The position numbers were made by a program, and so were the translations under genes. Below are positions 49,425 to 51,125 of a stretch of DNA of 64,000 nucleotides, piece after piece. The notes beneath the pieces were generated by a model. It worked only from the letters and a program-made list of their open reading frames with translations, was not told the DNA's origin and made no database searches. Every line of letters begins with the position of its first letter. The stretch's first letter is position 1. This DNA is from Candidatus Thorarchaeota archaeon. Lineage in GTDB: Archaea; Asgardarchaeota; Thorarchaeia; Thorarchaeales; Thorarchaeaceae. Location: NCBI GenBank assembly GCA_019057475.1, contig DXJO01000010.1:224001-288000 (forward strand), read 5' to 3'.

Positions 49425-51125
49425 TCACTTTTCGATTTTCCCCGTAATCAGCCCTCTTGTGATAGCGATGTAGTAGTCGACCATGTCGCTGACAGCCTTG
49501 GTCTTGACAATCTTTATCGCGATTTTCTTGTCCTTCAATGCCGTTGCGCACCTTTCCGCTATGATCTGCAAAGGCTCATCTGTGAAGACCTTTAGCAGTT
49601 CTCCGCGCTGAAGCACGAATCTGACTCCTGTGATACCTTCAAGCACTTTCCGCGCACGCGGGTCGACTTCCTCAAGCACGATTCCAACGCTGAACCCTCT
49701 CGATGGCATTGTTTCCTTGAGGCTTGCTGGAGTGCCAAATGCAACCAGACTCTTCCCGCGCATGAATACTGCAACCTTATCACAGAACTCTGCCTCAGAT
49801 GGATAGTGTGTGACGACCACAATGGAAGTTCCGTACTCTTGGTTGATGTAGGTCAGGTAGTTCCAGAGCTCGCTACGGTTATCTGGATCCAGCCCACTGG
49901 TTGGCTCATCCATAAGGAGCACTTTGGGCCTGTGGGCAAGAGCTATTGCAATGGATGCTCTCCTCTGCTGCCCCCCACTGAGCTCTCGAGTCGCATTGTT
50001 GCCCTTTTCGAGAATGTCGAAGTCCCTTAGGAGTGCCTTTCCCCTCTGTATAAGCTGCCACTCAGGAATGTCATACTGCTTACCGAATGCAATAATGTTC
50101 TCAAGCGGAGTAAAGGTCTCATACATGTAGTTAAGGTCTTGCGGACAGTATCCGAAGAAGTAACGGACCTTGCGCGTCTGTTTCGAGTCTATTCCTGCTA
50201 TTCTGGCCACTCCTGTACTTGGGATGTCACCGATTAGCGCCTTGATAGTCGTCGTTTTTCCGGCACCCGATTCGCCTATAATAGCTAGCATTTCGCCCTC
50301 TTGAATAGAGAAGGAAACGTTCTCAATCAGTTTCTTACCGCCTCGGACTGTGACTGTTAGATTGCGAGTGGATAACACATCTCTGTAGGCAGGAGCGTCC
50401 TTCCAAGCAAATGGCTGGACGTAGACCTTGTCTGCGAGTATCGTTAGATTTGGATTCGAACTCGGACCAATGAGAAGCTGAGGCTGCGCGATAGTGAATA
50501 TCTTTGGATCTCCCACAGAGTCTTCCGGCTCGACACGTACTTCAAGGAAACCCTCAAGCAGGATGGGTGCTGGCTTCAAAGAGGCACCAACAAGATTTCC
50601 CTTAATCAGTATCGGCAGTTTGTCGGAGGCTCGTTTCCCCCATACGGTGCAAGAAACCTGGCGGCTCTGTTTCATCTTCTCTAGGGCCTTCACTGCCTGC
50701 TGAAGGTCGCGTCCATCGTAGTAAAGGTCATCATCCAAGTTTCTCTTCAGGTAGTTCTGCAAGGTGACTTGGGCGGCGGCAACATCTTCATGTGTAGCGC
50801 CCTCGCCTCCCACGGTCAGAACCGTGTCCAGATTTCCAACCTTCTTCCGGCGCAGGTCTTCTTCAATAAGCACTGCAATGCGTCGCGTTAATACTCCTTT
50901 CCGAAATTTCAGTACCCTGCCCTTGAAACGCACCTCTTTTCCCGTTGCGTTAAGTACTCCTTGCACGTCACAGTGCAACTCCCTATCATGTCTGTCGATG
51001 CACCAGTCAATTGCCTCTCCCATTCTAGATCCTGAGAAATAGGCTTCCTCCACAAACGAGGGCATTTCTCTGGGTGGAGCGGGCGCACTACCTGGTTTGG
51101 GTTCCATGGCTTGTTTCTCCTCCAT
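49425..51125 (-). CDS. ABC ATPase with ~245-aa N-terminal extension (two TrmB-C-like modules)
   Basis: GESGAGKTT, LSGGQ, LLMDEPT, VTH; N-terminal VGGEGATHED motif. Confidence 0.9.
   Translation of the reverse strand: MEEKQAMEPKPGSAPAPPREMPSFVEEAYFSGSRMGEAIDWCIDRHDRELHCDVQGVLNATGKEVRFKGRVLKFRKGVLTRRIAVLIEEDLRRKKVGNLDTVLTVGGEGATHEDVAAAQVTLQNYLKRNLDDDLYYDGRDLQQAVKALEKMKQSRQVSCTVWGKRASDKLPILIKGNLVGASLKPAPILLEGFLEVRVEPEDSVGDPKIFTIAQPQLLIGPSSNPNLTILADKVYVQPFAWKDAPAYRDVLSTRNLTVTVRGGKKLIENVSFSIQEGEMLAIIGESGAGKTTTIKALIGDIPSTGVARIAGIDSKQTRKVRYFFGYCPQDLNYMYETFTPLENIIAFGKQYDIPEWQLIQRGKALLRDFDILEKGNNATRELSGGQQRRASIAIALAHRPKVLLMDEPTSGLDPDNRSELWNYLTYINQEYGTSIVVVTHYPSEAEFCDKVAVFMRGKSLVAFGTPASLKETMPSRGFSVGIVLEEVDPRARKVLEGITGVRFVLQRGELLKVFTDEPLQIIAERCATALKDKKIAIKIVKTKAVSDMVDYYIAITRGLITGKIEK

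What the first reader, a model, noticed from the sequence alone, without database searches (positions are those of the whole stretch)
50420..51060. ABC ATPase fused to two TrmB C-terminal (sugar-binding)-like modules
Seen: the N-terminal extension reads RMGEAIDW..ELHCDVQG..TGKEVRFKGRV..LTVGGEGATHEDVAAAQVTL, followed by a degenerate second copy (RDLQQAV..VSCTVWGK..LIKGNLV). Known from memory: the C-terminal subdomain of Thermococcales TrmB reads MFHAVDF..IYAEITGK..SGRLETLTGRV..VKVGGMFAVIED, and its GG..ED segment binds sugar. Inference: a sugar-sensing domain from a transcription regulator has been grafted onto an exporter ATPase, giving ligand-gated transport. Copy 2 lacks GG..ED.
Basis: partly seen in the sequence, partly recalled or inferred. 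Interest (0 to 1): 0.85.

Follow-up and report, generated by a model that had tools for sequence, protein, structure and literature searches.

The report
ABC ATPase with tandem TrmB-type barrels
An Asgard-archaeal exporter ATPase carries, in front of its motor domain, two copies of the small beta-barrel that the archaeal regulator TrmB uses to hold sugars. This is a conserved, undescribed domain combination that probably lets the pump recognise a ligand or cargo, although no binding has been shown.

Summary
Window 49425-51125 (-) encodes a 566-aa ABC ATPase of a Thorarchaeota-type Asgard genome.

- **Copy 1:** residues 22-130 match Pfam PF11495 above threshold. In an AlphaFold model (pLDDT 84) they superpose on the C-terminal barrel subdomain of TrmB (Z 15.8, rmsd 1.6 A over 91 residues), far above any other PDB fold.
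- **Copy 2:** residues 131-245 are a true second copy (profile-profile P 2e-16). Distant orthologues keep the GG..ED loop in it; the Thor lineage has lost it.
- **Distribution:** the fusion is conserved in 137 of 400 Asgard genomes. In the three loci with enough flank it sits beside an ABC-2 permease and a plain paralogous ATPase.

Two of TrmB's six barrel sugar contacts (G320, E326) are kept, and both vary among orthologues. TrmB's other subdomain is absent. Nothing shows sugar binding, gating, or descent from a regulator.

Most likely this is a cytosolic ligand- or cargo-recognition module that tunes the ATPase, analogous to the Wzt CBD or the ModC/MalK regulatory domains. It is a new variant of a known kind. 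First readers noted the same fusion in other genomes of this scan; those notes are unchecked.

The parts
49425..51125 (-). Whole gene: 566-aa ABC ATPase with an N-terminal tandem-barrel extension (P0001). Its ATG overlaps the permease stop codon (TAATG).
   Evidence: ORF list and translation; junction read; 146 close homologues of the same length and architecture.
51063..51125 (-). aa 1-21: variable N-terminal tail, modelled with low confidence.
   Evidence: Mean pairwise identity 30% with no invariant column among 116 orthologues; pLDDT 53-65.
50736..51062 (-). Copy 1 (aa 22-130): TrmB effector-domain C-terminal subdomain, made of a strand, a helix and a flattened beta-barrel.
   Evidence: PF11495 at 34.7 bits against a cut-off of 22.2; VIA Z 15.8 and rmsd 1.6 A to 3qph 247-340; Foldseek E 8e-6; hhalign against an Asgard TrmB, P 1.3e-6.
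50784..50816 (-). Copy-1 loop TVGGEGATHED (aa 104-114), equivalent to the TrmB sugar-contact segment 317-327. T104, G106 and D114 are three of only five invariant columns across the whole family's extension.
   Evidence: Translation; residue mapping from the 2f5t alignment; invariant columns; column counts; TrmB contact residues from PMC4158304.
50391..50735 (-). Copy 2 (aa 131-245): second barrel module. Its GG..ED loop is replaced in this lineage by IAQPQ...NPNLT, which is itself invariant among Thor orthologues.
   Evidence: hhalign copy 1 against copy 2, probability 98.7%, P 2.4e-16; copy 2 against TrmB, P 6.6e-5; sub-threshold PF11495 hits in copy 2 of 4 of 8 distant members; invariant residues; model strands at 155-241.
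50340..50390 (-). aa 246-262: linker between the barrels and the ATPase core.
   Evidence: Model pLDDT dips to 55 here; conserved at 76%.
49692..50339 (-). aa 263-478: ABC nucleotide-binding domain with an intact Walker A, signature motif, Walker B with catalytic Glu, D-loop and H-loop.
   Evidence: PF00005 E 8.8e-27; motif scan.
49428..49691 (-). aa 479-566: C-terminal domain shared with the plain paralogous ATPase. It has no Pfam match.
   Evidence: The BLASTP alignment with the second ATPase runs through this region; no Pfam hit.
51125..52306 (-). ABC-2 family permease (393 aa), translationally coupled upstream partner.
   Evidence: PF12698 E 4e-28 and PF01061; the same neighbour in distant orthologues.
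44038..45030 (-). Plain 330-aa ABC ATPase, a 37%-identical paralogue with all motifs intact. It is the probable heterodimer partner.
   Evidence: a roughly 320-376-aa ABC ATPase also lies beside the fused gene in two distant lineages.
45023..49417 (-). 1464-aa subtilase-like membrane protein with a GldG/GIFT-like region, lying between the two ATPase genes. It gives operon context.
   Evidence: PF00082 E 3e-40; PF23355 above its cut-off (28.3 bits against 27.2); PF09822 and PF14258 below cut-off; an S8 neighbour in two distant lineages.

Best explanation
Shown:
- The gene encodes one nucleotide-binding subunit of an ABC-2 (exporter-type) transporter of an Asgard archaeon.
- Ahead of an intact ATPase core it carries two tandem copies of the strand-helix-barrel module that forms the second subdomain of the TrmB effector-binding domain.
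- It lacks TrmB's first subdomain and its DNA-binding domain.
- The fusion is old and under purifying selection. It occurs in several Asgard families. In the loci examined it lies next to an ABC-2 permease and a plain paralogous ATPase.

Inferred:
- The fused and plain ATPases form a heterodimeric motor, so each transporter carries one tandem-barrel module on its cytosolic face.
- The module is a ligand-recognition device. The copy-1 loop T-x-G-G-x5-E-D occupies the position of TrmB's sugar-contact loop and holds three of the five invariant residues of the whole extension, so it is the probable binding site for a carbohydrate-type ligand.
- Occupancy of that site is relayed to the adjoining ATPase and changes its cycle.

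The sequence cannot tell whether the ligand is a cytosolic signal (as in ModC, MetN and MalK regulation) or the sugar end of the cargo itself (as with the Wzt carbohydrate-binding domain). I lean slightly towards cargo recognition.

In the Thor lineage copy 2 has exchanged its ancestral GG..ED loop for another strictly conserved surface. It has therefore taken on a second role that cannot yet be named, possibly a protein contact.
For: Homology and fold:
- PF11495 above its cut-off.
- TrmB structures are the only significant Foldseek hits.
- VIA Z 15.8/15.1 with rmsd 1.6/1.3 A, well separated from the next fold at Z 8.3.
- ESM Atlas neighbours are TrmB regulators with rmsd 1.4-2.3 A.

Duplication: hhalign P 2.4e-16.

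Functional constraint:
- Copy 1 and copy 2 show 73-74% mean pairwise identity over 116 orthologues, against 30% for the N-terminal tail.
- T104, G106 and D114 are invariant across 44 sequences that go down to 20% identity.
- This loop maps onto TrmB 317-327, which holds five of the six barrel sugar contacts.
- G320 and E326, the only two contacts conserved among TrmB, TrmBL1, Tgr and MalR (PMC4158304), are present here as G107 and E113.

ATPase and system:
- All ATPase motifs are intact.
- The permease is ABC-2 family.
- The plain paralogous ATPase lies in the same operon and beside the fused gene in two distant lineages.

Precedents:
- The Wzt CBD sits on the NBD of an ABC-2-type exporter. 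It binds the glycan cap between the CBD and the NBD, and binding lowers ATP hydrolysis (PMC9445017).
- The ModC and MetN regulatory domains bind ligand and hold the NBDs apart (PMC4245157).
Against: - No binding or transport data exist.
- Four of the six TrmB barrel contacts are replaced (N305 to I83, M321 to E108, V324 to T111, I325 to H112).
- The two retained contacts are not fixed among orthologues (G/S/A and E/Q/D).
- In TrmB the sugar lies in a cleft formed with the first subdomain, which is missing here. The pocket would therefore have to be completed by copy 2 or by the NBD, and I could not inspect model coordinates to check this.
- The invariant Gly and Asp residues could be purely structural (turn residues).
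- The barrel fold also resembles Pelota N-domain and bL19-type barrels that bind RNA or protein.
- The heterodimer is inferred from gene order only.
Confidence: 0.45

Rival explanations
1. The module is a TrmB-derived sensor of maltose, trehalose or glucose-type sugars, and it gates the exporter allosterically. The ligand is a signal, not the cargo. The domain was grafted from a transcription regulator.
For: The fold and the GG..ED loop match TrmB. The G320 and E326 equivalents are present in this protein. A true TrmB in another Asgard genome sits in a sugar-uptake locus, which shows the domain is used for sugar sensing in the phylum.
Against: Only 2 of 6 contacts are kept, and they vary among orthologues. 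The sugar-recognition helix subdomain is absent. No sugar-metabolism genes are conserved around the operon in the loci read. Full TrmB effector domains are rare in the Asgard genomes searched, so no donor is evident.
Confidence: 0.12
2. The module is a protein-docking adaptor with no small-molecule ligand. The tandem barrels tether the ATPase to another component, and the conserved loops are interface residues. Candidate partners are the plain ATPase, the permease's cytosolic segments, or the cytosolic tail of the S8/GIFT membrane protein or of the giant surface protein.
For: In Thor, copy 2 lost the TrmB-like loop but gained a strictly invariant surface (Q214, P215, Q216, G220, P225, T228, K233 to Y235, W241), which is typical of an interface. 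The operon partners are co-conserved. Small SH3- or Sm-like barrels often bind peptides (fold neighbours).
Against: The most conserved element family-wide is exactly the loop that binds sugar in TrmB. The S8 neighbour is missing from the Helarchaeota locus, which keeps both barrels.
Confidence: 0.25
3. The module binds nucleic acid. The barrels would bind RNA or DNA, like the structurally similar Pelota N-domain, bL19 and Sm-like barrels, and would link the ATPase to a non-transport role.
For: Secondary fold neighbours at Z 5-8 are Pelota and bL19. Stand-alone single-barrel paralogues carry Arg/His-rich tails.
Against: TrmB matches far better (Z about 15 against 8 or less). The gene is translationally coupled to an ABC-2 permease. 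The fused barrels have no basic tail.
Confidence: 0.04
4. The resemblance is chance or convergent. On this reading the extension is an unrelated barrel and the 'second copy' is an over-reading.
For: Within this one protein the two halves align only at E 0.068. A profile search of PDB sequences gives TrmB only E 0.41.
Against: The Pfam hit is above its curated cut-off. Structural Z is 15.8 at rmsd 1.6 A with 20% identity. Profile-profile P values are 2.4e-16 and 1.3e-6. The strand-helix-barrel order and loop spacing are the same.
Confidence: 0.01

Closest known systems
TrmB effector-binding domain, second (C-terminal) subdomain (P. furiosus / T. litoralis TrmB; PDB 3QPH, 2F5T; Pfam PF11495 positions ~150-233)
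   Same: Same fold and topology (strand, helix, flattened barrel), rmsd 1.3-1.6 A over about 90 residues at 20% identity. The V/T-x-G-G-x5-E-D loop has the same spacing, and the G320 and E326 equivalents are present.
   Different: No winged-helix DNA-binding domain, no coiled coil and no first EBD subdomain. The module is duplicated in tandem and sits at the N-terminus of an ABC ATPase. Four of the six sugar contacts are replaced. There is a 9-residue insertion before the loop.
Wzt carbohydrate-binding domain of WzmWzt O-antigen ABC transporters (PMC9445017)
   Same: It is an accessory sugar-recognising beta domain fused to the NBD of an ABC-2-type exporter. Ligand is bound between the accessory domain and the NBD, and binding modulates ATP hydrolysis. 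This is what the present protein may work like.
   Different: The Wzt CBD is C-terminal, has an unrelated fold (from my own knowledge it is a jelly-roll sandwich) and acts as a homodimer. Here the module is N-terminal, TrmB-like and tandem within one chain, and it is probably present on only one of two different NBDs. Glycan cargo is not shown here.
Regulatory domains of ABC importer ATPases: ModC and MalK (TOBE-type), MetN (C2) (PMC4245157)
   Same: Ligand-binding beta-rich domains fused to the NBD control NBD closure (trans-inhibition). ModC and ModE are a precedent for one ligand-binding fold serving both a transcription regulator and the ATPase of a transporter (own knowledge).
   Different: Those domains are C-terminal, belong to importers with binding proteins, and are present on both NBDs. 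The fold here is TrmB-type, and the system is an ABC-2 exporter type with no binding-protein gene seen in the operon.
Mycobacterium tuberculosis Rv1747 (own knowledge, not checked here)
   Same: An ABC exporter whose NBD is preceded by two tandem N-terminal regulatory modules (FHA domains).
   Different: FHA domains bind phosphothreonine peptides and are unrelated in fold. Rv1747 is a half-transporter with a fused membrane domain.

Membership tests
TrmB effector-binding domain (Pfam PF11495), C-terminal subdomain | Sequence match to the family model above the curated cut-off | tested here: met
   Copy 1: 34.7 bits against 22.2, profile positions 162-231. Copy 2 of this protein has no hit. Copy 2 of distant orthologues hits only below threshold, E 0.01-0.26.
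TrmB effector-binding domain (Pfam PF11495), C-terminal subdomain | [quoted passage not shown] | tested here: met
   Model elements are E26-31, H32-44 and then five strands. It superposes on 3qph 247-340 with Z 15.8 and rmsd 1.6 A. Copy 2 has the same order of elements and aligns to copy 1 at P 2.4e-16, but it was not superposed on TrmB separately.
TrmB effector-binding domain (Pfam PF11495), C-terminal subdomain | The six barrel residues that contact sugar in TrmB (N305, G320, M321, V324, I325, E326) | tested here: not met
   The equivalents are I83, G107, E108, T111, H112 and E113, so 2 of 6 are identical. The mapping rests on an HMM alignment with low confidence around N305.
TrmB effector-binding domain (Pfam PF11495), C-terminal subdomain | The minimal pair G320 and E326, conserved in the sugar-binding relatives TrmBL1, Tgr and MalR | tested here: inconclusive
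   The pair is present in this protein (G107, E113). Among 123 distinct orthologues the positions read G84/S37/A2 and E55/Q38/D24. The neighbouring G106 and D114 are invariant.
TrmB family transcription regulators | N-terminal winged-helix DNA-binding domain (PF01978) and the first EBD subdomain with the sugar-recognition helix | tested here: not met
   No PF01978 hit and no match to PF11495 positions 1-150. The protein is not a TrmB regulator.
TrmB family transcription regulators | Binding of maltose, sucrose, glucose or similar sugars | not testable with these tools
   This needs DSF, ITC or a structure with ligand.
ABC ATPase (PF00005) | Walker A, signature LSGGQ, Walker B with catalytic Glu, D-loop and H-loop | tested here: met
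   PF00005 E 8.8e-27. Motifs lie at 284, 382, 402, 409 and 437.
ABC-2 type exporter system | A partner permease of the ABC-2 membrane families, encoded adjacent to the ATPase | tested here: met
   PF12698 E 4e-28 and PF01061 in the gene whose stop codon overlaps the ATPase start. The arrangement is conserved in distant orthologues.
Wzt-type CBD-bearing ATPase | A C-terminal carbohydrate-binding domain of the Wzt fold that recognises a glycan cap | tested here: not met
   The accessory module is N-terminal and TrmB-like. The resemblance is functional analogy only, and glycan binding was not tested.
TOBE/Mop-type regulatory domains (MalK, ModC) | A C-terminal TOBE-fold domain on the NBD | tested here: inconclusive
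   No TOBE-domain entry appears among the listed structural neighbours. The position in the chain differs, being N-terminal.

The most novel reading that the evidence does not exclude
The tandem TrmB-type barrels are the cargo selector of an Asgard-specific ABC-2 machine built from a permease, two different ATPases and an S8/GIFT protein. They would recognise the terminal sugar of a lipid- or protein-linked glycan in the cytosol and license its export. This would be an independent archaeal invention of the Wzt principle using a regulator's sugar pocket. The ancestor would have had two sites and the Thor lineage one, its second site converted into a protein contact.
Probability: 0.2. Interest if true: 0.7.

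Novelty: new variant of a known kind. Interest (0 to 1): 0.5.

Why it matters
Accessory ligand-binding domains on ABC motor subunits are one of the few ways to learn what an orphan transporter carries or senses.

This fusion is present in most Thorarchaeota-type genomes searched and in several other Asgard families. It belongs to a conserved operon with a GldG/GIFT-like protein, and no function is known for that operon.

The barrels offer a soluble, expressible handle of about 240 residues for ligand fishing. That could reveal the substrate or signal of the whole system.

The finding also shows that the TrmB sugar-binding barrel is a portable module used outside transcription. It appears in tandem on a transporter and as stand-alone small proteins.

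I found no paper describing this in the searched library. Automated Pfam annotation already flags PF11495 on many of these proteins.

Tried and rejected
- **First structure prediction.** A model built on 32 close orthologues was unusable (pLDDT 49.8). It was replaced by the model built on a diverse alignment.
- **Sequence searches of the PDB.** phmmer and hmmsearch with the extension or its close-orthologue profile found no TrmB. A copy-1 profile ranked 2f5t first, but only at E 0.41.
- **Direct comparison of the two copies.** BLASTP within this one protein was not significant (E 0.068). A close-orthologue profile comparison gave only 60% probability. The duplication became clear only with distant family members.
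- **Collecting more TrmB C-termini.** A search with P0123 residues 275-377 returned only the query itself.
- **Complex prediction.** A job with two copies of aa 20-262 returned 'no answer' (score 0.00). This is no evidence for or against dimerisation.
- **ESM Atlas feature search.** It returned no usable hit.
- **Sequencing runs.** No RNA holder was listed for window 49000-52400, so expression could not be examined and read laying was not run.
- **Literature searches.** Searches for a described TrmB-ABC fusion found nothing relevant.
- **Tests I left out.** I considered testing binding between the barrels and the cytosolic tail of the S8/GIFT protein, or the plain ATPase. Gene neighbourhood alone is a weak reason, and a failed test would say nothing.
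- **Model inspection.** Model coordinates are not exposed, so I could not check whether the copy-1 loop faces copy 2 or the solvent.
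Full report
**What is there**

The finding lies inside a 566-aa ORF at window 49425..51125 on the minus strand. Coordinates 50420-51060 correspond to about aa 22-236.

Pfam assigns an ABC ATPase core to aa 268-410 (PF00005, E 8.8e-27). It also matches aa 45-123 to positions 162-231 of the 233-position Regulator_TrmB model PF11495, at 34.7 bits against a curated cut-off of 22.2. No TrmB DNA-binding domain is found, and nothing matches the first 150 positions of PF11495.

The ATPase motifs are complete: Walker A at 284, LSGGQ at 382, Walker B with Glu at 402-407, D-loop at 409 and H-loop at 437-440. 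The start codon overlaps the stop codon of an ABC-2 family permease (PF12698, E 4e-28).

The genome is 3.34 Mb and 96% complete. Named close homologues are almost all 'Candidatus Thorarchaeota' MAGs. The DNA is held by marine-sediment and cold-seep metagenomes.

**Is copy 1 really TrmB-like?**

Yes, by four independent routes.

1. The Pfam hit is above its cut-off.
2. BLASTP to a bona fide TrmB from another Asgard genome aligns aa 20-122 with TrmB 282-375 at E 2e-4. That protein (P0123) has both PF01978 and full-length PF11495. Its loop VGG..YEDV..A..IT aligns with VGG..HEDV..A..VT here. The family profile against that TrmB C-terminus gives hhalign probability 90.7%, P 1.3e-6.
3. An AlphaFold model on a 44-sequence alignment that reaches down to 20% identity is confident (pLDDT 84.2, pTM 0.68). 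Foldseek against the whole PDB returns exactly two significant hits, both TrmB: 3qph_A at E 8e-6 and 2f5t_X at E 5e-5.
4. VIA-align places model residues 24-127 on 3qph 247-340 with Z 15.8 and rmsd 1.6 A over 91 residues. For 2f5t the values are Z 15.1 and rmsd 1.3 A. The next fold is the Pelota N-domain at Z 8.3.

The matched range is exactly the second EBD subdomain as described in the TrmB review: strand E-beta9, helix E-alpha4 and a flattened seven-stranded barrel (PMC4158304). ESM Atlas neighbours are likewise TrmB regulators, at rmsd 1.4-2.3 A over residues 24-127.

**Is there a second copy?**

Within this one protein the evidence is weak (BLASTP E 0.068). A profile built from close orthologues gives only 60% probability.

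The full-library search found just 17 representative clusters among 1.84 billion proteins. Among them are distant members, and the one lineage I traced to named records is Helarchaeota. In these, copy 2 still reads like copy 1 and includes a V/I-G-G ... E-D-V-x-A-x-K-I segment.

- With these sequences included, copy-1 profile against copy-2 profile gives probability 98.7%, P 2.4e-16 over 99 columns.
- In a 43%-identical orthologue the two halves align at BLASTP E 0.002.
- The copy-2 profile aligns to the TrmB C-terminus at P 6.6e-5.
- Copy 2 of four of eight distant members gives sub-threshold PF11495 hits on the same profile region.
- In the model, copy 2 repeats the strand-helix-strands order and draws the same secondary neighbours (bL19) as copy 1.

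The tandem duplication is real and ancestral. The Thor lineage then replaced the copy-2 loop (IAQPQ...NPNLT here). 'Degenerate' is misleading, however. Among 116 orthologues copy 2 is as conserved as copy 1 (74.0% against 72.8% mean pairwise identity, compared with 30% for the N-terminal tail and 87% for the ATPase core). The replacement loop is itself invariant.

**Distribution and context**

A profile of the extension finds a match in 137 of 400 Asgard genomes searched, usually one per genome.

- Own family: 81 of 85 genomes.
- Other families with matches: 17/19, 5/5, 6/6, 11/14, 4/4, 3/3 and 3/3.
- Families with no match among those searched: 0/31, 0/22 and 0/12.
- Full-length matches lie mostly in open frames of about 545-650 residues, the size of the fusion.

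Among the PF11495 matches listed for 151 Asgard genomes, those to the barrel part of the model lay in these fusion ORFs. One listed match covered a full TrmB effector domain.

Gene order is conserved.

- **This window:** permease, fused ATPase, a 1464-aa subtilase-like protein with a GldG/GIFT-like region, a plain 330-aa ATPase, and a 2258-aa TSP3-repeat/propeller protein.
- **A 43%-identical orthologue in another family:** the same permease-ATPase-subtilase order.
- **A 28%-identical lineage:** subtilase, fused ATPase, permease, plain ATPase.
- **A Helarchaeota locus:** the fused ATPase within 4 kb of an ABC-2 permease and a plain ATPase, but with no subtilase.

The plain ATPase is a 37%-identical paralogue that shares the C-terminal domain and has all motifs. 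I infer a heterodimeric motor, but this is not shown.

**Does it bind sugar?**

This remains unknown.

The 2f5t alignment reproduces the published numbering, so the contact residues can be mapped.

| TrmB residue | Here |
|---|---|
| N305 | I83 |
| G319 | G106 |
| G320 | G107 |
| M321 | E108 |
| V324 | T111 |
| I325 | H112 |
| E326 | E113 |
| D327 | D114 |

Of the six barrel contacts listed in PMC4158304, two are kept. They are the same two (G320, E326) that are the only ones conserved among TrmB, TrmBL1, Tgr and MalR, regulators with differing sugar specificity.

Against a fixed sugar site, these two positions vary among 123 distinct orthologues (G84/S37/A2 and E55/Q38/D24). The first subdomain, which closes the TrmB cleft, is also missing.

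In favour of a functional site, T104, G106 and D114 in this loop are three of only five invariant columns in the whole extension across the diverse family. The substitutions at position 113 keep a hydrogen-bonding side chain.

**Mechanism**

I commit to the following, at moderate confidence. The barrels are a cytosolic ligand-recognition module, and its occupancy is relayed to the adjoining ATPase.

Two known systems show how this can work.

- The Wzt carbohydrate-binding domain of the ABC-2-type O-antigen exporter binds the glycan cap between the CBD and the NBD, and binding lowers ATP hydrolysis (PMC9445017).
- The regulatory domains of ModC, MetN and MalK bind ligand or partner proteins and prevent NBD closure (PMC4245157).

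TrmB's barrel grips the non-reducing glucosyl end of its sugars, which is the kind of recognition a cargo selector needs. The operon also encodes large surface proteins and a GldG/GIFT-like protein. For these reasons I lean slightly towards cargo-end recognition over pure metabolite sensing.

The main rival is a protein-docking role. The invariant new surface of copy 2 in Thor supports it.

**Novelty**

The principle of an accessory binding domain on an ABC motor is known. What is new is the module (TrmB barrel), its tandem form, its N-terminal position, its presence on probably only one of two different NBDs, and its restriction to Asgard archaea. I found none of this described in the literature searched.

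Automated annotation already marks PF11495 on many members. First readers of this scan noted the same fusion in other genomes without checking it. I rate it a new variant of a known kind, of moderate interest.

Noticed in passing
L039:2949-3353 (+), L038:2953-3372 (-), L041:2748-3185 (+), L040:2781-3269 (-): Stand-alone proteins of 134-162 aa consisting of one TrmB-type barrel module (Y-F-x-G-x-D-L-D-K-A-I-D-W ... I-G-K-P ... A-x-E-x-F) followed by an Arg/His-rich tail. They occur in Thorarchaeota-type genomes and in one other Asgard family. They are homologous to copy 1 (hhalign probability 96%, E 4.6e-9) and give sub-threshold PF11495 hits. Their function is unknown; the basic tail hints at nucleic-acid binding.
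   Followed up: partly
window 45023-49417 (-): A 1464-aa subtilase-like protein lies between the two ATPase genes. It matches IFT52-GIFT above its cut-off, and ABC_transp_aux (GldG) and DUF4350 below cut-off, around aa 1067-1153. An S8 neighbour recurs in two distant lineages. Another first-reader note says the catalytic Ser is missing; I did not check this.
   Followed up: partly
window 44038-45030 (-): A second, plain ABC ATPase is 37% identical to the fused one across the NBD and a shared C-terminal domain that has no Pfam family. There are two different ATPases but only one permease gene in the operon.
   Followed up: partly
L035:12522-13379 (+) and neighbours: In a Helarchaeota contig the fused ATPase is followed by a 251-aa protein with no Pfam match and a 285-aa Arf/Ras/Roc-type small GTPase. 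It is preceded by a 511-aa protein with no Pfam match. No subtilase is present there.
   Followed up: no
L003:1087-2220 (+): One Asgard genome (G102) encodes a full TrmB (wHTH plus complete effector domain). It lies between a HAD/beta-phosphoglucomutase-like gene fused or adjacent to a glycoside phosphorylase-like N-terminus and a sugar-type solute-binding protein, which is a classical sugar regulon.
   Followed up: no
G000:C27:3026-3442 (-) and many loci: Matches to the first subdomain of PF11495 (positions 2-140), in ORFs of about 250-290 aa, are common in Asgard genomes. Many are reported with one to three in-frame stop codons (TGA, TAA or TAG) inside the match, including the one in this genome. 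I did not examine whether these are read-through of gene ends, pseudogenes or an artefact of the six-frame match.
   Followed up: no
window 52554-55001 (+): An 815-aa ORF, divergent from the permease gene, has no Pfam family even at E 1. It is not conserved beside the operon in the distant locus L034, where the divergent neighbour is a 346-aa ORF with a different N-terminal sequence.
   Followed up: no
window 37265-44041 (-) and 55228-58227 (+): Two large proteins carry bacterial TSP3 calcium-binding repeats. One (2258 aa) has beta-propeller matches and closes the ABC operon. The other (999 aa) has DUF7948 and SBBP repeats.
   Followed up: no
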